Shown here piece by piece: positions 38,147 to 48,849 of a stretch of DNA of 64,000 nt. Both the position numbers and the translations under genes were made by a program. This stretch comes from Vicinamibacteria bacterium (GTDB lineage Bacteria > Acidobacteriota > Vicinamibacteria > Marinacidobacterales > Marinacidobacteraceae), in NCBI GenBank assembly GCA_963422395.1, contig OY729431.1:2488887-2552886 (forward strand). Reading direction: 5' to 3'. Under the pieces are notes generated by a model that saw nothing but the letters and a program-made list of their open reading frames with translations, searched no databases and was not told where the DNA came from. Numbering within the stretch: position 1 is the stretch's first letter; each line of letters begins with the position of its first letter.

Positions 38147-38447
38147 GTCAGGGTCTCCTCAGGATCTCCGGGAAGCGCACCGACCAGCGAGCACCGCGAA
38201 CCGGAGAGGCCCCGGACGCTATCCGCTCGCGAGCCGAGCCGTCAATGGCCACTCGGGGGCTGCGCCGGGGGAGCTTCGGACAGGCGGTCGCAGGGGAGCG
38301 GACCGAGGCCCCACGGAAAGCTGCTCTTCCCGCCTATAGAAGAGGATGTTGCGCTTGCTTCGCAGGGGCTCGATGGGTGTCCCCGCATGGATGACGATTT
38401 TTGTCCAGGTGATCGAGTATCCTGTCTTGCTTCAGACCCTCTCTGCG

Positions 38448-40700
38448 ATGCCTTCTCGATCTGATCACTATTTCGCGCACAGCGCCCCCTCCGAAAACCC
38501 GTCCTCGTGGCACCGGCTGGACGACCACCTCCGGCACACCGGAGACCGCGCCGCCGGCTTCCTCGAACGGGTCGGGCTCGCCCACTTCGGTCGGGCCGCC
38601 GGGCTCCTCCATGACCTCGGCAAGTACACCGAGAAGTTCCAGCAGAGGCTCCGCGGCGGCCCGCGCGTGAATCATTCGACAGCCGGAGCCAAAATCGCGT
38701 GCGAACGCTATCCAGGCATCATCGGAAAAATGCTGGCATTCGGTGTTGCCGGCCATCACGCGGGACTTGCGAATGGTGTGAACGGCGAGAAAATCACTGC
38801 CCTCGCCGATCGGTTGCGCGAAAACACCCCCGAACTCGACCCGTTATGGAGCCAGGAAATACAACTCCCGCCGCTTGGTCCACCGCAGATCCAGAGCCGC
38901 AGTCGGGAGAACGCCGGATTTTCCGGGTCGTTCCTGATCCGCCTGCTGTTCTCGGCCCTGGTGGACGCAGACTATCTCGATACCGAGGCCTATTACGCAA
39001 GAATCGAGAAAACGAGTCCGAGTCGCGGAGGCCACCCCTCACTCGGAATACTTCGCGACCGCCTCGATGCCCACCTCGAAGGGCTCACCGCGCGGGCCTC
39101 GGCCAGCGAAGTGAACGCGCTCCGCCGCGAAGTGCTGCACCACGCCAGAAAACGGGCAGTGGACACGCCCGGCCTCTTCACTCTCACGGTACCTACCGGC
39201 GGCGGCAAGACCCTCACTTCACTGTCGTTCGCCCTCCACCACGCCGTGCACCACGGGCTCGACCGGATCCTCTATGTCATCCCGTACATGAACATCATCG
39301 AACAGACGGCCGCTGTTTTCCGCGATGTCCTGCAAGACGACGAATCCGAGGGGCCGCACTTCGTGATCGAGCATCACAGCACCTTCGACGAGCAGCGAGT
39401 CGAGAAACGTTCCGGTAAAGAGAAACTCCGTCTCGCGATGGAGAATTGGGACGCTCCCATCGTGGTCACCACCGCCGTCCAGTTCTTCGAGAGCCTTTTC
39501 TCGAACCGCCCGTCCCGCTGCCGAAAACTGCACAACATCGCTGGCAGCGTCGTCGTCCTAGATGAGGCGCAGACTCTTCCCCTCGAATTCCTGCGCCCCT
39601 GCGTCGCCGCGATGGATGAGCTGGCGCGGAATTGGCGCGCCACCGTCGTCCTCTGCAGTGCCACGCAGCCGGCGCTGCGCGAGGAGAGCGGCTTCTGTGG
39701 CGGATTGCGCGAAGTGCGTGAACTCGCACCCCAACCGACTCGGCTCCAGCGAAGCCTAAAGCGAACTCGTATCCACCAAAAAGGCCCGATGGAGGACTCC
39801 GAGATCACCGAACGATTGCGTGGAACGCCGCAGGCACTTTGCATCGTCAACACGCGGGCCCACGCACGGGCTCTGTACGAAGCAATCGAAGATCAGGATG
39901 GGGCCACGCACCTCACCACTTCGATGTGCGCCCGTCACCGTCGGGAGATTCTGGAAGAAGTCCGCTCCCGGCTGACGATCGGTGAACCGATTCGGTTGAT
40001 CGCCACCTCACTGGTCGAAGCCGGGGTGGACCTGGATTTTCCGGTCGTTTGGCGTGAGGAAGCAGGCCTCGAATCCATCATCCAGGCGGCAGGACGATGC
40101 AATCGGGAAGGGAAAGCGCCGTCCGGAGATGTGATCGTGTTCCGTTCGCAAGCCGGTGGTCGAGGATTGCCCGAGATACGGAAGGCCGCAGACGCTGCGC
40201 GCCAGGTCCTCCGGAAGCACCAGGATCCCATGTCTCTGCCCGCCATCCAGGAGTATTTCCAGACGCGCTACTGGATCGAAGGAGATAATGCCTTGGACAC
40301 CAAGGGGATCCTTCCCATGCTCCGTGAACGGAAAAGGAGTCTCGACTTTCCTTTCGAAACGATCTCTCGTGCGTTCTGCCTGATCGAAACACCCATGGCC
40401 CCGGTGATCGTCCCCTACAGAGGCCGAGAGGGGAAAGACAGAACCGCAGACCGCCTGATCGCCGCTCTCGAGCATGAAGAGCGCCCCGGCTGGCTGGCGC
40501 GTAGTCTGCAGCCGTACACGGTCCCCGTTCCGCTGCTCGGCCGGAAATCTCTACTGGACTCCAGGGCCGCCCGGATCATCCGGGAGGCCGATTTCGACGA
40601 ACAGTTCGTCGTCCTCGACAACCGAGACATCTATCGGGCGGACATCGGCCTCACCTGGGACGATCCAAGCTTTCACAGCGTCGAGGGGCTGATCTGTTGA
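38448..40700 (+). CDS. cas3: CRISPR-associated helicase/nuclease Cas3 (HD domain plus SF2 helicase).
   Basis: The HD motifs HYFAHS and LLHDLGKY are at the N-terminus. Helicase motifs VPTGGGKT and VLDEAQ follow. The start is assigned to ATG 38448 (MPSRSDHYFAHS). The track start at 38346 adds non-conserved residues. Confidence 0.95.
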   Translation: MPSRSDHYFAHSAPSENPSSWHRLDDHLRHTGDRAAGFLERVGLAHFGRAAGLLHDLGKYTEKFQQRLRGGPRVNHSTAGAKIACERYPGIIGKMLAFGVAGHHAGLANGVNGEKITALADRLRENTPELDPLWSQEIQLPPLGPPQIQSRSRENAGFSGSFLIRLLFSALVDADYLDTEAYYARIEKTSPSRGGHPSLGILRDRLDAHLEGLTARASASEVNALRREVLHHARKRAVDTPGLFTLTVPTGGGKTLTSLSFALHHAVHHGLDRILYVIPYMNIIEQTAAVFRDVLQDDESEGPHFVIEHHSTFDEQRVEKRSGKEKLRLAMENWDAPIVVTTAVQFFESLFSNRPSRCRKLHNIAGSVVVLDEAQTLPLEFLRPCVAAMDELARNWRATVVLCSATQPALREESGFCGGLREVRELAPQPTRLQRSLKRTRIHQKGPMEDSEITERLRGTPQALCIVNTRAHARALYEAIEDQDGATHLTTSMCARHRREILEEVRSRLTIGEPIRLIATSLVEAGVDLDFPVVWREEAGLESIIQAAGRCNREGKAPSGDVIVFRSQAGGRGLPEIRKAADAARQVLRKHQDPMSLPAIQEYFQTRYWIEGDNALDTKGILPMLRERKRSLDFPFETISRAFCLIETPMAPVIVPYRGREGKDRTADRLIAALEHEERPGWLARSLQPYTVPVPLLGRKSLLDSRAARIIREADFDEQFVVLDNRDIYRADIGLTWDDPSFHSVEGLIC

Positions 40701-40948
40701 ACCGGCAGGGATCCGTTCCAACGCAGCGAGGTGGAGTTGCGGCTTCCCCGGAGACCTCCTGGAATTCGGGTTCCTCACCATGCGAACGAAAAGAGCCATC
40801 CTTCCCAGCCATGACGGGGGCCACCCGCTCCCAACGAGTCGCAGCACGGGGACTGAAACGGATGGCGAGTACCGATGAGGACTGTCGTCCCCGGCTCGCC
40901 CGGGGACTCGGATCGACGGAGAGTACAGAAGTTCGGGGGAGGAAGACG

Positions 40949-41150
40949 ATGCCCGACTCCACTCATGAATGGCCGGAAAGTCCTTCGGACTCTGGAGCGC
41001 CAAGGATTCGAATGCGTGCGCCGGCGGGGAAGCCACCGCATCCTTCGAACCTCTGCCAGAGGCAGCGAACGGGTGACAGTCGCCGGGAAATAAGGCGACG
41101 AGCTACGGAAGGGAACCCCGGTGGCGGTCTCCTTCGACCTGCTACCACCA
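40949..41150 (+). pseudogene. hicA-like mRNA-interferase toxin remnant, with an in-frame stop and a probable frameshift.
   Basis: MNGRKVLRTLERQGFECVRRRGSHRILRTSARGSERVTVAGK*GDELRKGTPVAVSFDLL aligns with the HicA family pattern (LeklGfelvrqkGSH...vtvP.H.gkdl..GTlrsIlkqagL). A TAA interrupts it at 41091..41093. A strong SD (GGGGGAGGAAG) serves an ATG at 40949 that is out of frame with the HicA frame at 40965. Confidence 0.4.
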
Positions 41151-41244
41151 AGAGAGCTTTCCACTGCCGCCGCCTCGACTGCAGCGTACCGGGAACGACC
41201 CCGGAGCGGCTGATGCGGGGCGGACTTCTCGCCGGGGCGGCCTG

Positions 41245-41916
41245 ATGTCGTACGGAGCAAGACTCCATGTGTGGGGCGATTACGCATGTTTCACTCGCCC
41301 CGAGATGAAGGCCGAGCGCGTCTCCTACGACGTCATGACACCGTCGGCAGCGCGTGGAATTCTGGAAGCGATCCATTGGAAGCCGGCGATCCGGTGGATC
41401 GTGGATCGGATCCAGGTGTTGAAACGGATCCGGTTCGAAACGATTCGAAGAAACGAACTCGGAAGCAAGATTCCGGCAGGAAACATCAGCGTCGCGATGC
41501 AGCGCGGCGACACCGGAGGTCTCGCCGTCTCGATCGAAAGCGACCGGCAGCAGCGCGCCGCCACCGTACTGCGCGATGTCGCTTATCTCATCGAAGCGCA
41601 CTTCATCCTCACACCCGTTGCAAACCCAGACGATACTCCGGCGAAACACGCCGCGATGTTCCACCGGCGCGCCGCTCGAGGGCAGTGCTTCCACCGACCG
41701 TATCTGGGGACCCGCGAGTTCCCGGCCCACTTCGCCCCGGTCCCGGATCCGCCGCCATCATCCTCCCTACCGACCGATCAGTGTGATCGTGATCTAGGCT
41801 GGATGCTGCACGACCTCGACTACGCGAATGCCGCGTCGCCCAGATTCTTCCGCGCAACGCTCCGGAATGGCGTGGTGCATGTCCCGCCGCTTGATTCAGA
41901 GGAGGTCAAGGGATGA
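41245..41916 (+). CDS. cas5c: Cas5c (Cas5d), type I-C.
   Basis: MSYGARLHVWGDYACFTRPEMKAERVSYDVMTPSAARGILEAIHWKP is the canonical Cas5d N-terminus. The stop overlaps the cas8c start (ATGA). Confidence 0.95.
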   Translation: MSYGARLHVWGDYACFTRPEMKAERVSYDVMTPSAARGILEAIHWKPAIRWIVDRIQVLKRIRFETIRRNELGSKIPAGNISVAMQRGDTGGLAVSIESDRQQRAATVLRDVAYLIEAHFILTPVANPDDTPAKHAAMFHRRAARGQCFHRPYLGTREFPAHFAPVPDPPPSSSLPTDQCDRDLGWMLHDLDYANAASPRFFRATLRNGVVHVPPLDSEEVKG

Positions 41917-46800: not shown

Positions 46801-48849
46801 GTCGCCCCCCGCACGGGGGGCGCGGATTGAAACTTCTGGAATCGCACATTGGAGACATTGAATGCGGTGTCGCCCCCCGCACGGGGGGCGCGGATTGAAA
46901 CCGTGAGGCTGTCCAGGATCTCTCCTGCTATGTATGGTCGCCCCCCGCACGGGGGGCGCGGATTGAAACTCCTTTGCCGGCTTGCCGGCGGTTGATGTTG
47001 GAGTCGCCCCCCGCACGGGGGGCGCGGATTGAAACATCGCAGTCCGCGCATTTCCTCGCGTCGCTCTTTGTCGCCCCCCGCACGGGGGGCGCGGATTGAA
47101 ACGCACGCTGGGGCAGGAAAGCCGAAGAGCTCTATGTCGCCCCCCGCACGGGGGGCGCGGATTGAAACTCATCGAACCGGGGGCAAGCCCCCCAAAGGAA
47201 AAAGTCGCCCCCCGCACGGGGGGCGCGGATTGAAACATCGTGTTTTTCCTTTGCCGGCGGGCTGCCGGCGTCGCCCCCCGCACGGGGGGCGCGGATTGAA
47301 ACTGATCAGGATTGACAATCGCTAGCCGACTGCGCGACGTCGCCCCCCGCACGGGGGGCGCGGATTGAAACGAGTGAACGGAACGCCATTCGCGTAGGCA
47401 GCCGAGTCGCCCCCCGCACGGGGGGCGCGGATTGAAACTCGTCTGTACGGCGTGCTGGGCAGCCCGTAGGGCAGCGTCGCCCCCCGCACGGGGGGCGCGG
47501 ATTGAAACTCGTGTACGGGCTGGTCAGCCCGCCCAGCCCAGCGTCGCCCCCCGCACGGGGGGCGCGGATTGAAACAGTGGGGTGCCGCCGCCGCGCAGTC
47601 CGCGCAAAGTCGCCCCCCGCACGGGGGGCGCGGATTGAAACCCTCTCTGGTCGCGATCATCGGCAGTCTGCCGCGTCGCCCCCCGCACGGGGGGCGCGGA
47701 TTGAAACCCCACTTACTGCCACGCTGCCCTACCCCATGCGTCGCCCCCCGCACGGGGGGCGCGGATTGAAACCATATCCGCATCGCATTCCGCGCAGGCC
47801 TTCACGGTCGCCCCCCGCACGGGGGGCGCGGATTGAAACTATTCCATCCGGACTTGGTCCGACACCGCCTTGAGTCGCCCCCCGCACGGGGGGCGCGGAT
47901 TGAAACCACTTCCTGCTGACTGCGGCAGTCGGCATCTTGGTCGCCCCCCGCACGGGGGGCGCGGATTGAAACTTTGTCTCCTCCTCGATTTCCGCCCATC
48001 GGCGAAGGACGTCGCCCCCCGCACGGGGGGCGCGGATTGAAACTCCTTTGGCGGCCGGCGGCCGCCGTGTTGTTTGAGTCGCCCCCCGCACGGGGGGCGC
48101 GGATTGAAACGCTAGGCGGGCGTTGGATTTGCGCCTCCCGCCGCCGGTCGCCCCCCGCACGGGGGGCGCGGATTGAAACGTTGGATGCGGCCCGGACCAA
48201 AGCTCCTTGCATGCGTCGCCCCCCGCACGGGGGGCGCGGATTGAAACCTCCTTTCGGCGGCCGGCGGCCTCCGTGTTTGAGTCGCCCCCCGCACGGGGGG
48301 CGCGGATTGAAACGGTTGCGATTCGTGGAGTATGTCTGCTCGAATCGGGTCGCCCCCCGCACGGGGGGCGCGGATTGAAACCCTTCATCGCAACCGAACA
48401 CCGCCCCCGGCGGCGTCGCCCCCCGCACGGGGGGCGCGGATTGAAACCTTTGGCGCCGGGTTAGGCGCCGGTTTGATTCGCGTCGCCCCCCGCACGGGGG
48501 GCGCGGATTGAAACCAAGTGCACCTTGCCGGAGTGCTTTGAGGACCTGGGTCGCCCCCCGCACGGGGGGCGCGGATTGAAACTTCCTGGATTCGCGGCGA
48601 TGATGCCGTGTTTCCTGTCGCCCCCCGCACGGGGGGCGCGGATTGAAACCGCGCGCGTGTCTGTCCCTAGTGGGGACGAGCTGCGTCGCCCCCCGCACGG
48701 GGGGCGCGGATTGAAACGCCAAAGCATCGCTGACGCTCGCGAAGCCCGCGGTCGCCCCCCGCACGGAGGGCGCGGATTGAAACTCCATGGATTGGCGCCG
48801 AGGAACCGGTGTTCCCGTCGCCCCCCGCGCGGGGGGCGCGGATTGAAAC
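46801..48849 (+). CRISPR. Type I-C CRISPR array: 31 repeats of the 33-bp GTCGCCCCCCGCACGGGGGGCGCGGATTGAAAC and 30 spacers of 32-38 bp.
   Basis: Repeats start at 46801, 46869, 46937, 47003, 47070, 47136, 47204, 47270, 47339, 47406, 47476, 47543, 47609, 47675, 47740, 47807, 47874, 47940, 48011, 48078, 48147, 48215, 48281, 48349, 48415, 48482, 48550, 48617, 48685, 48751 and 48817. The last two carry point mutations (GGAGGG and GCGC). The repeat forms a 7-bp GCCCCCC/GGGGGGC hairpin. Confidence 0.97.

What the first reader, a model, noticed from the sequence alone, without database searches (positions are those of the whole stretch)
40701..41244. Degraded hicA-like toxin gene inside the cas3-cas5c intergenic gap
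I-C operons normally have cas5c directly after cas3. Here a 545-bp gap contains a clear HicA-family sequence (KVLRTLERQGFECVRRRGSHRIL...RVTVAGK*GDELRKGTPVAVSFDLL). It carries an in-frame TAA at the conserved P-H-H position. A strong SD (GGGGGAGGAAG) drives an ATG that is out of frame with the HicA reading frame. No hicB partner is detectable. This is either a relic of a toxin-antitoxin module once embedded in, and perhaps stabilising, the cas operon, or a short 42-aa HicA-derived peptide is still made. Toxin-antitoxin and Cas associations are of current interest, for example in coupling abortive infection or addiction to cas maintenance.
Basis: seen in the sequence. Interest (0 to 1): 0.65.

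Follow-up and report, generated by a model that had tools for sequence, protein, structure and literature searches.

The report
Eroded CRISPR-controlled HicA toxin cassette
The gap between cas3 and cas5c holds the decayed remains of a HicA toxin gene and of the small CRISPR-like guide RNA that probably kept it switched off. Relatives still carry the complete cassette, so this locus shows how a CRISPR system can lose such a toxin module.

Summary
The 544-nt cas3–cas5c gap holds a HicA-family reading frame (Pfam PF07927, E 3.8e-10) broken by an in-frame TAA at 41091-41093, and no hicB is present.

Upstream of hicA lies a degenerate mini-CRISPR (repeat-like, spacer, repeat-like). In 10 of those loci its spacer matches a TTC/TTT-flanked site (GTC in two) over the predicted -35 box of the promoter just after cas3. 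Mismatches cluster at spacer positions 6 and 12 (P = 4e-9), as expected for type I Cascade binding.

The window keeps weakened copies of every part except hicB:
- a weaker promoter;
- a target matching 9/12, with mismatches at pairing positions 2, 7 and 11;
- both repeat-like units;
- a hicA pseudogene.

It sits between an intact relative (L084) and a relative that keeps only the promoter and mini-array (L001).

This is a fossil of a Cascade-repressed toxin–antitoxin cargo, the I-C counterpart of the published CreTA, CRISIS and I-D mini-array systems. Interest is moderate.

The parts
38346..40700 (+). cas3 (784 aa). Its stop codon marks the left edge of the gap.
   Evidence: ORF. Pfam Cas3-like_C_2, DEAD and ResIII.
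40774..40802 (+). Weakened promoter-like element: -35 CTCACC (40774-40779), 17-nt spacer, -10 CATCCT (40797-40802). It corresponds to TTCACA-17-TATCCT in L001.
   Evidence: Read and alignment A1/A4. The L001 counterpart is the only promoter the scan finds there. The window copy falls below the scan threshold.
40760..40783 (-). Decayed protospacer (target) of the mini-CRISPR spacer. It reads GCATGGTGAGGA on the minus strand from 40783. The PAM TTC lies on the minus strand (GAA at 40784-40786 on plus). The site overlaps the -35 box.
   Evidence: It matches 9 of the first 12 spacer bases. It is the only TTC-flanked site in the whole 64-kb window, on either strand, that reaches 9/12; 0.00125 such sites are expected per 160 nt. 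Mismatches fall at positions 2, 7 and 11.
40838..40859 (+). psiR1, the first degenerate CRISPR repeat: GTCGCAGCACGGGGACTGAAAC. The last 11 nt, GGGACTGAAAC (40849-40859), are the 5'-handle equivalent and match the array repeat at 9 of 11. The upstream hairpin is largely lost.
   Evidence: Alignment to the array repeat (score 19, weak on its own). The ...GG(A/G)T(T/C)GAAA(C/A/T) motif is at the same place in relatives. The fold is weak, -5.8 kcal/mol.
40860..40883 (+). psiS, the spacer-like segment: GGATGGCGAGTACCGATGAGGACT (24 nt).
   Evidence: It lies between psiR1 and psiR2. The spacer differs between loci and co-varies with the upstream target.
40884..40917 (+). psiR2, the second degenerate repeat: GTCGTCCCCGGCTCGCCCGGGGACTCGGATCGAC. 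It has an 8-bp hairpin (40887-40894 pairs with 40900-40907).
   Evidence: It is the best match to the array repeat among 3,676 50-nt windows (1,838 window positions, both strands) outside the array (score 30). The hairpin is predicted here and in every relative. The unit is conserved in alignment A1.
40935..41245 (+). SD GGGGGAGGAAG (40935-40945) followed by ATG at 40949 and a 98-codon ORF. The ORF is out of frame with hicA. It ends in TGA at 41243-41245, overlapping the cas5c ATG as TGATG. It is probably a translated leader rather than a protein with its own function.
   Evidence: A homologous SD-ATG and TGATG junction frame a 23-codon ORF in L001/L083. The peptide sequence itself is not conserved.
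40965..41159 (+). hicA pseudogene with an in-frame TAA at 41091-41093 (codon 43).
   Evidence: Pfam PF07927 E 3.8e-10. tblastn with relatives' HicA gives E 1e-12. Alignment A5 shows lost conserved residues (FEGVV to LRTSA; IRRQSGLP to VSFDLLPP) and a 1-aa deletion.
41245..41916 (+). cas5c, the right edge of the gap and first gene of the Cascade genes cas5c-cas8c-cas7.
   Evidence: ORF. Pfam Cas_Cas5d, E 8e-46.

Best explanation
The gap is the eroded remnant of a Cascade-repressed HicA/HicB cassette.

In intact relatives the order after the cas3 stop is:
1. a promoter;
2. a degenerate mini-CRISPR (psiR1-psiS-psiR2);
3. hicA on the same strand;
4. a HicB-fold antitoxin gene on the opposite strand, without a DNA-binding domain and with its own promoter;
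5. cas5c.

Inferred mechanism in relatives. Cas5c cuts the mini-CRISPR transcript into a crRNA-like RNA. Cascade loads this RNA and binds the TTC/TTT-flanked site over the -35 box of the very promoter that made it. The match is too short to trigger Cas3 cleavage. Transcription of the guide and of hicA is therefore held low while Cascade is present. If Cascade is lost or blocked by an anti-CRISPR, the promoter opens, the HicA RNase outruns HicB, and the cell arrests.

State in the window. hicA is dead: it has a TAA at codon 43, has lost its SD and has decayed conserved residues. hicB is deleted. The promoter hexamers are weakened. The guide-target match has dropped to 9/12, with mismatches at pairing positions 2, 7 and 11. 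No toxin is made and the repression loop is probably broken.

The sequence shows the parts and their decay. Processing of the guide, Cascade binding, repression and toxicity are all inferred.
For: HicA identity and damage.

Mini-CRISPR:
- psiR2 is the best repeat-like sequence outside the array.
- The handle-spacer-hairpin layout is conserved.
- An unbiased self-match search finds the handle-adjacent spacer and its upstream minus-strand target as a top-scoring self-match (ties are the same pair read from the other strand) in L001, L013, L015, L017, L021 and others.
- Seed matches are 10/10 in seven loci, 9/10 in two and 8/10 in one.
- Spacer and target change together between loci.
- 15 of 19 mismatches fall at positions 6 or 12 (P 4e-9).

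Window target: unique in 64 kb.

Promoters. L001's TTCACA-17-TATCCT covers its target. Minus-strand promoters are found upstream of hicB in L013 and L017.

Control. A stand-alone hicA/hicB pair outside any CRISPR locus (L164) has no repeat-like handle, whereas another I-C-embedded pair (L081) does.

Decay series: L084 intact (860 nt), window (544 nt), L001/L083 (319 nt).

Published precedent for the logic: bioRxiv 10.1101/2024.12.27.630466; PMC10120712; bioRxiv 10.1101/2023.03.10.532045.
Against: - There are no expression data. Promoters are consensus-level predictions in organisms (mostly uncultured Acidobacteria and Proteobacteria MAGs) whose promoter rules are unknown. In most relatives the -35 is only a TTGCA-type hexamer that the scan tool does not call.
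- Four hicAB-carrying loci (L002/L003, which are identical, L019 and L084) show no convincing target, and L012 shows no repeat-like handle in the region searched.
- The TAA could be an assembly error. No closer relative than 77% Cas5c identity was found to check this.
- psiR2, the handle and a uniquely recognisable target are still there, so some residual regulation cannot be excluded.
- psiR1 alone is not statistically distinguishable from chance.
Confidence: 0.8

Rival explanations
1. The mini-CRISPR in the window still works as a CreR-type regulator. Its crRNA-like RNA guides Cascade to the 40760-40783 site and tunes an internal promoter that feeds cas5c-cas8c-cas7. The hicA relic is only a passenger in the leader.
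For: L001/L083, the closest relatives, have promoter, target (15/15 outside positions 6 and 12) and mini-array but no toxin, directly upstream of cas5c. So a cargo-free regulatory state exists. In the window psiR2 and the handle are well kept. The target is the only such site in 64 kb and has the right PAM. The published CreR preprint reports mini-CRISPR-like elements in I-C next to effector promoters.
Against: The three mismatches are at pairing positions 2, 7 and 11, not at the tolerated positions 6 and 12 used in relatives. Both promoter hexamers have lost their first T. The psiR1 hairpin, which published I-C work places directly 5' of the Cas5c cut, is weak.
Confidence: 0.2
2. A short HicA-derived peptide is still made and has a function. 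It would be 42 aa from ATG 40965, or 72 aa from ATG 40875.
For: The reading frame up to the TAA keeps the family's invariant residues, including the GSH motif. An ATG-to-stop ORF exists.
Against: There is no SD before 40965; the GGAG of L084 reads GACT here. The ATG at 40875 lies inside the spacer-like segment. The truncation removes the conserved C-terminal stretch, and nearly invariant residues before the stop are also lost. The strong SD serves a different frame.
Confidence: 0.03
3. The SD-led 98-codon ORF (40949-41245) is functionally translated. It would act as a leader that keeps ribosomes on the pseudogene stretch and couples translation to cas5c. This can hold together with the best explanation.
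For: The SD spacing is ideal, 6 nt. The frame stays open for 98 codons and stops in TGATG on the cas5c start. L001/L083 share the SD-ATG and the TGATG junction around a 23-codon ORF although most of the relic between them is deleted.
Against: An open frame of 98 codons at 64% GC has about a 7% chance expectation (my estimate). The peptide is not conserved between the window and L001. TGATG junctions are not enriched among I-C loci: 4 of 120.
Confidence: 0.2
4. The SD plus ATG is a CreT-like RNA toxin (strong SD, start codon, rare-codon trap) controlled by the mini-CRISPR, as in CreTA.
For: A strong SD and an ATG lie directly downstream of a mini-CRISPR inside a cas operon, which resembles the CreTA layout described.
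Against: No tandem rare or proline codons follow the ATG (ATG CCC GAC TCC...). The codons are not shared with L001 (ATG ACG GAA GAC). The ORF is long and runs into cas5c. In intact relatives the gene at this position is hicA.
Confidence: 0.03
5. The stop codon is a sequencing or assembly error, and hicA is intact in the organism.
For: A single base (TAA versus GAA) separates the relic from an open frame. The source reads cannot be inspected.
Against: Other decay is independent of that base: a lost SD, a 1-aa deletion and substitutions at nearly invariant positions. No antitoxin gene is present, so an active HicA should be harmful.
Confidence: 0.03

Closest known systems
CRISIS, CRISPR-supervised immune systems in type I-C (Shu et al., bioRxiv 10.1101/2024.12.27.630466)
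   Same: Non-cas cargo sits between cas3 and cas5c. A repeat-like unit gives a crRNA-like RNA with an 11-nt 5' handle. The target lies just upstream of the cargo, with a TTC/TTA PAM and mismatches at positions 6 and 12, and the cargo promoter is repressed by Cascade. The same layout appears in many of the loci fetched here.
   Different: The cargo here is a HicA/HicB pair, which is not among the ten systems described. The repeat-like unit lies before the cargo, in its 5' leader and about 60-80 nt from its own target. It does not lie after the cargo next to cas5c. In the window the cargo is dead.
CreTA, CRISPR-regulated toxin-antitoxin RNA pairs (I-B, I-F)
   Same: A degenerate mini-CRISPR inside the cas operon guides Cascade to the promoter of an adjacent toxin. 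Loss of Cascade releases the toxin.
   Different: The CreT toxins are small RNAs. Here the toxin is a protein RNase (HicA), and a separate protein antitoxin (HicB fold) is also encoded.
CreR, Cas-regulating mini-CRISPRs (bioRxiv 10.1101/2023.03.10.532045)
   Same: A mini-CRISPR without a toxin targets the promoter that feeds the effector genes. The authors note such elements in I-C. L001/L083, and perhaps the window, look like this.
   Different: In this clade the element seems to have been tied to a toxin cargo first and to have been left behind when the cargo decayed.
Mini-arrays regulating toxin-antitoxin cargo in type I-D (Shmakov et al. 2023, PMC10120712)
   Same: The order is mini-array, then TA cargo, then the effector gene, with the target in the cargo promoter. 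Related loci retain the mini-array but lack cargo, and 'empty' loci also occur.
   Different: The subtype differs (I-D, cas3 to cas10d). HicA is not named in the text held. The supplements could not be checked.
Canonical HicAB and the DBD-less Class 1/2 HicB (Gerdes 2024, PMC10865869)
   Same: The relatives have a HicA toxin domain and a HicB-fold partner lacking a DNA-binding domain. That paper states that such modules raise the question of how they are regulated.
   Different: The genes are convergent with overlapping 3' ends rather than forming an operon. The partner has no Pfam hit. Transcription control appears to be handed to Cascade.
Cas13a-associated HicAB in Leptotrichia (PMC13448076)
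   Same: A HicAB module is functionally linked to a CRISPR-Cas system (abstract).
   Different: That system is type VI and the toxin is described as activated by CRISPR activity. It is not repressed by a DNA-binding effector.

Membership tests
HicA toxin (Pfam PF07927) | Sequence match to the family profile above the curated cut-off | tested here: met
   40.2 bits against a cut-off of 27, E 3.8e-10, on the conceptual translation with the stop masked.
HicA toxin (Pfam PF07927) | Uninterrupted reading frame of about 60-80 codons with its own ribosome-binding site | tested here: not met
   TAA at codon 43. The SD seen in L084 is lost.
HicA toxin (Pfam PF07927) | Conserved GSH motif, which holds the catalytic histidine according to established knowledge of HicA | tested here: met
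   S23, H24 and R25 are invariant in alignment A5 and present in the window.
HicA toxin (Pfam PF07927) | Conserved C-terminal stretch (GTLxxIRRQSGL in this subfamily) | tested here: not met
   The window reads GTPVAVSFDLL. I, Q, S and L at nearly invariant columns are replaced.
HicAB toxin-antitoxin module | Adjacent HicB-fold antitoxin gene | tested here: not met
   [not shown]
HicAB toxin-antitoxin module | Toxicity of HicA and neutralisation by HicB | not testable with these tools
   This needs expression experiments.
Regulatory mini-CRISPR (CreA / CreR / crlRNA) | Two repeat-like units flanking a spacer-like segment in a cas intergenic region | tested here: met
   psiR2 is the top repeat match outside the array. 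psiR1 is weak alone but lies at the conserved position with the ...CTGAAAC handle.
Regulatory mini-CRISPR (CreA / CreR / crlRNA) | Elements needed for Cas5c processing: a hairpin directly 5' of an 11-nt handle, and a 3' hairpin | tested here: inconclusive
   The handle matches 9/11 and the psiR2 hairpin has 8 bp, but the psiR1 hairpin is weak at -5.8 kcal/mol.
Regulatory mini-CRISPR (CreA / CreR / crlRNA) | Partial match of the spacer to a nearby promoter, next to the subtype's PAM | tested here: inconclusive
   In the window the match is 9/12 with a TTC PAM over the -35 and is unique in 64 kb. The mismatches fall at pairing positions 2, 7 and 11. In ten relatives the feature is clearly met.
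Regulatory mini-CRISPR (CreA / CreR / crlRNA) | Cascade-dependent repression without cleavage | not testable with these tools
   This needs reporter assays and sRNA-seq.
CRISIS (Shu et al.) | Repeat-like unit directly after the cargo and before cas5c | tested here: not met
   In the hicAB clade the mini-array lies 100-150 nt after the cas3 stop and 700-780 nt before cas5c. In CRISIS-type loci it lies 60-100 nt before cas5c.
CRISIS (Shu et al.) | Target just upstream of the cargo with a TTC or TTA PAM | tested here: met
CreTA | Toxin is a small RNA with an SD, a start codon and a rare-codon trap | tested here: not met
   The codons after ATG 40949 are ordinary and are not shared with L001. In relatives the gene there is hicA.

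The most novel reading that the evidence does not exclude
The window is a fossil of a widespread and, in the literature searched, undescribed type I-C accessory module. In it, a protein toxin-antitoxin pair (HicA plus a convergent HicB-fold protein with no DNA-binding domain and no Pfam family) has its transcription control handed to Cascade. The control would work through a crRNA-like guide encoded in the toxin's own 5' leader, which shuts off the promoter that makes it. The series L084, window, L001 would then record how a CRISPR locus sheds its guard toxin and keeps the guide as a plain Cas regulator.
Probability: 0.55. Interest if true: 0.6.

Novelty: new member of a known kind. Interest (0 to 1): 0.45.

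Why it matters
Toxins repressed by CRISPR effectors are thought to make cells dependent on their CRISPR system and to kill cells in which a phage anti-CRISPR has disabled it.

This clade adds a classical protein toxin-antitoxin pair to that list for type I-C. It offers an answer to an open question about HicB proteins without a DNA-binding domain: who regulates them? It also shows a layout in which the guide and the toxin appear to share one self-repressed transcript.

The window shows that such guards are not permanent. The toxin was presumably inactivated first, since losing the antitoxin while HicA was active should be harmful. The antitoxin was then lost, and the guide and its target are now drifting apart, while the cas genes and the array stay intact.

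The intact relatives are compact constructs for testing Cascade-controlled kill switches.

Tried and rejected
- Rfam scan of 40300-41600 at E up to 1 gave only two weak, unrelated hits and no CRISPR-repeat family.
- The sigma-70 and terminator scan of the window gap found no promoter and only two chance-level minus-strand terminator-like sites outside the gap.
- Pfam on the other five frames of the gap found nothing meaningful.
- A search for the window's own contig or close variants failed three ways. There was no exact Cas5c product on record. There was no match to a 32-nt pattern across the TAA in the metagenome contigs. The best Cas5c relatives in both genome and metagenome collections are only 77% identical. 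The TAA could therefore not be checked against a population.
- An early candidate target, a 7-nt seed match at 40795-40801 over the -10 box, was rejected because its PAM is GAA, not TTC.
- A whole-window search for another target of the spacer found none with an acceptable PAM.
- The idea that the HicB-like family is exclusive to I-C loci was rejected. Two of five sampled members are in I-C gaps. Three lie outside any CRISPR locus; two of those have a convergent hicA next to them (one annotated, one found by translation).
- The idea that stop-start TGATG coupling at cas5c is general in I-C was rejected: 4 of 120 loci.
Full report
**1. What is in the window**

The window carries a complete type I-C locus. 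The genes are cas3 (38346-40700), cas5c (41245-41916), cas8c/csd1, cas7, cas4, cas1 and cas2. All are confirmed by Pfam. A CRISPR array follows from about 46867 to 48849, with the 33-nt repeat GTCGCCCCCCGCACGGGGGGCGCGGATTGAAAC.

The cas3–cas5c gap is 544 nt long. Only one of its six frames hits a Pfam family. That family is HicA_toxin: E 3.8e-10, 40.2 bits against a cut-off of 27, covering nt 40971-41117 and running across the in-frame TAA at 41091-41093.

The SD GGGGGAGGAAG (40935-40945) sits 6 nt before an ATG at 40949. That ATG is out of frame with hicA.

**2. Related loci show what the relic was**

Cas5c was used to fetch 80 loci from species-representative genomes and 80 from metagenomes. 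The closest are only 77% (L001/L083) and 74% (L084) identical. The cas3-stop to cas5c-start distance could be measured in 120 loci. It ranges from overlap to 3.8 kb.

Fourteen loci hold an intact hicA of 68-79 codons on the cas strand (Pfam E 4e-17 and 1.5e-13). Thirteen of them have gaps of about 810-910 nt; the fourteenth, L012, has a 3.8-kb gap. On the opposite strand each holds a conserved gene of about 100-118 codons, whose 3' end meets or overlaps that of hicA.

Relatives' HicA proteins align to the window at 40965-41159 through the stop codon (E 1e-12). No remnant of the HicB-like gene is left in the window.

**3. A mini-CRISPR fills the 5' half of the gap**

Upstream of hicA, every cassette-bearing locus examined except L012 has three elements in order:
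- a sequence ending in GG(A/G)T(T/C)GAAA(C/A/T), which is the 3' end of the I-C repeat and hence the 11-nt crRNA 5' handle;
- a variable segment of 24-35 nt;
- a second repeat-like unit, GTCG(C/T)CCC...hairpin...GGGG(A/G)CG(T/C)GGAT.

In the window these are psiR1 (40838-40859), psiS (40860-40883) and psiR2 (40884-40917). psiR2 is the best match to the array repeat among 3,676 50-nt windows (1,838 window positions, both strands) outside the array. psiR1 alone is weak.

**4. The spacer-like segment has a target at the promoter that precedes it**

An unbiased search was run for any 17-mer in each gap that matches another place in the same gap, ignoring positions 6 and 12. In L001, L013, L015, L017, L021 and others, a top-scoring match (ties being the same pair read from the other strand) was the segment directly after the handle paired with a minus-strand site 60-80 nt upstream. 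That site is flanked by TTC or TTT.

Across the cassette clade the seed match (positions 1-5 and 7-11) is 10/10 in seven loci, 9/10 in two and 8/10 in one. The spacer and target sequences differ between loci but change together. For example, L013 has ATGCAGGTCGTTCCC against ATGCAaGTCGTcCCC, and L015 has ATGCACTTTGTTCTC against ATGCAaTTTGTcCTC. Of 19 mismatches within positions 1-12, 15 lie at position 6 or 12 (P = 4e-9). Those are the positions that do not pair in type I effector complexes, as also noted for I-C.

The target covers a -35-like hexamer (TTGCAT, TTGCAA or TTCACA). A TAnnnT box follows 17-18 nt later in most of these loci. In L001 the scan tool calls exactly this promoter, TTCACA-17-TATCCT, and nothing else. 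Minus-strand promoters upstream of the HicB-like gene are called in L013 and L017.

A stand-alone convergent hicA/hicB pair outside any CRISPR locus (L164) has no repeat-like handle. A further I-C-embedded pair (L081) does. The guide is therefore a feature of the CRISPR-embedded copies.

Among 81 loci with gaps of 120-4000 nt, 36 show a handle-adjacent spacer with a match of at least 12/15. In 27 of these the PAM is TTC, TTT or TTA. Most of the rest of these loci have the published layout, with the repeat-like unit just before cas5c.

**5. State of the window**

Every part except hicB is recognisable, and every part is damaged.
- *Promoter.* It reads CTCACC-17-CATCCT (40774-40802). Compared with L001's TTCACA-17-TATCCT it has lost the first T of each hexamer.
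- *Target.* On the minus strand from 40783, next to a TTC PAM, lies GCATGGTGAGGA against spacer GGATGGCGAGTA. This is a 9/12 match. It is the only TTC-flanked site in the whole 64-kb window, on either strand, to reach 9/12, where 0.00125 are expected per 160 nt. However, the three mismatches are at pairing positions 2, 7 and 11.
- *psiR1.* It keeps 9/11 of the handle but little of the hairpin.
- *hicA.* It has the TAA where relatives have E or D. It also has a 1-aa deletion and substitutions at nearly invariant columns before and after the stop (FEGVV to LRTSA; IRRQSGLP to VSFDLLPP). Its SD is lost.
- *hicB.* It is gone.

L001/L083 have lost a further 225 nt or so. They keep the promoter, the target, the mini-array and perhaps about 30 nt of the hicA 5' end. 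L005 shows the opposite path: hicB is kept, while the hicA 5' half and the mini-array are lost.

The window therefore sits between an intact cassette (L084) and a cargo-free regulator (L001). Losing the antitoxin while the toxin was active should be harmful. HicA was therefore most likely inactivated before hicB was deleted. This ordering is an inference.

**6. How it most likely works**

This section is inferred, except for the sequence facts cited.

In intact loci one promoter directly after cas3 drives the mini-CRISPR and hicA. In the loci read, only 37-45 nt separate psiR2 from the hicA ATG, and I saw no convincing promoter there by eye in L007 and L017. Cas5c is expected to release a crRNA-like RNA. 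Cascade loaded with this RNA binds the PAM-flanked site over the -35 box. In the loci read beyond position 12 the pairing drops away after about 12-17 nt, which should prevent Cas3 recruitment. This is the published logic for such guides.

The promoter is thus repressed by its own product, and hicA is held low as long as Cascade is functional. The HicB-fold protein cannot bind DNA and has its own promoter. It would buffer basal HicA. If Cascade is lost or inhibited, HicA (an RNase by family knowledge) would rise and arrest the cell. Read-through towards cas5c would run antisense to hicB and might also raise Cascade expression. This last point is speculative.

In the window no toxin can be made. 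The guide-target pair has probably dropped below the binding threshold. Residual CreR-like control of cas5c-cas8c-cas7 is possible, and I put it at about 0.2.

**7. The strong SD**

The SD-ATG at 40935-40951 opens a 98-codon frame that ends in TGA overlapping the cas5c ATG (TGATG). L001/L083 share the SD-ATG and the TGATG junction around a 23-codon ORF. The peptide is not conserved, and TGATG junctions are not general in I-C (4 of 120).

A translated leader that keeps ribosomes on the relic and couples translation to cas5c is plausible but unproven. A CreT-like RNA toxin is unlikely, because no rare-codon trap follows the ATG and the codons are not conserved.

**8. Comparison with what is known**

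The principle is published in four forms:
- CreTA RNA pairs in I-B and I-F;
- CreR autoregulators, with I-C elements noted;
- mini-arrays controlling toxin-antitoxin cargo between cas3 and cas10d in I-D, including relatives that keep the mini-array without cargo;
- CRISIS, in which I-C cargo between cas3 and cas5c is repressed through a repeat-like unit.

None of the texts I could search names HicA in this role. Supplements were not available. Gerdes's survey of HicA contexts lists HicB proteins without a DNA-binding domain and asks how they are regulated. It reports no CRISPR link for hicAB.

Three points differ from the published systems. The cargo is a protein toxin-antitoxin pair with a convergent HicB that has no Pfam match. 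The guide is placed in the toxin's leader next to its own target. A natural decay series is visible.

I file the family as a new member of a known kind, and the window's copy as its pseudogenised remnant.

**9. Limits**

- There are no transcript, protein or phenotype data.
- All relatives are 77% identical or less in Cas5c, and most are MAGs.
- Promoters are predicted by consensus.
- Five cassette-bearing loci lack a clear target or handle.
- The TAA could not be checked against reads.

Noticed in passing
window 40935-41245: A strong SD and an ATG at 40949 open a 98-codon frame that crosses the hicA relic out of frame. It ends in TGA overlapping the cas5c start (TGATG). The closest relative, L001/L083, has the homologous SD-ATG and TGATG junction around a 23-codon ORF. 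This may be a translated leader coupled to cas5c.
   Followed up: partly
[not shown]
   Followed up: yes
L164 4001-4654; L163; L165: The same HicB-like family also occurs outside CRISPR loci. In L164 it forms a convergent pair with hicA and no repeat-like handle lies upstream. The cassette therefore looks like a mobile toxin-antitoxin unit that some I-C loci captured and placed under a guide.
   Followed up: partly
L024, L030, L037, L045, L046, L048, L050, L070, L104, L123-L133, L142 (cas3-cas5c gaps): Many other I-C loci show the published CRISIS layout. A GTGGATTGAAAC handle and spacer lie 60-100 nt before cas5c, and a TTC-flanked minus-strand target lies 13-55 nt after the cas3 stop. The cargo between them ranges from about 0.2 to 3.6 kb. 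Several loci with 1.5-2 kb of cargo share the spacer TAAAGTAGTTAGATTAG.
   Followed up: no
L024 3652-4001 and L028 3642-4001: Short gaps of about 350 nt encode a peptide of about 60 aa with a hydrophobic C-terminal stretch (...LLLWCVVSVLGSVLLVWLGR). In L024 the ORF lies between a TTC-flanked target and a repeat-like unit. In L028 the search found no guide-target pair. This may be a small membrane toxin under Cascade control.
   Followed up: no
L005 3384-4001: This locus shows the reverse decay path. The HicB-like gene is intact, but hicA has lost its 5' half and no mini-array is detectable.
   Followed up: partly
L084 2140-3001; L002/L003; L019: hicA and the HicB-like gene are intact and a mini-array is present, but no convincing target was found upstream. 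In L084 the expected site reads CTGCAT|GAG (PAM CTC) with only 6/10 seed matches. Either regulation is relaxed or the target lies elsewhere.
   Followed up: partly
L082 4195-7508: In this long-read metagenome contig the cas3 and cas5 genes flanking the HicB-like gene are split into fragments and hicA is not called. This is either assembly frameshifts or a decaying locus.
   Followed up: no
window 40697-41245: One forward frame is open across the entire gap, 182 codons from a TTG overlapping the cas3 stop to the TGA overlapping the cas5c start. It is probably a GC-rich chance ORF, like many others in the ORF list, but it is the same frame as the SD-led leader.
   Followed up: no
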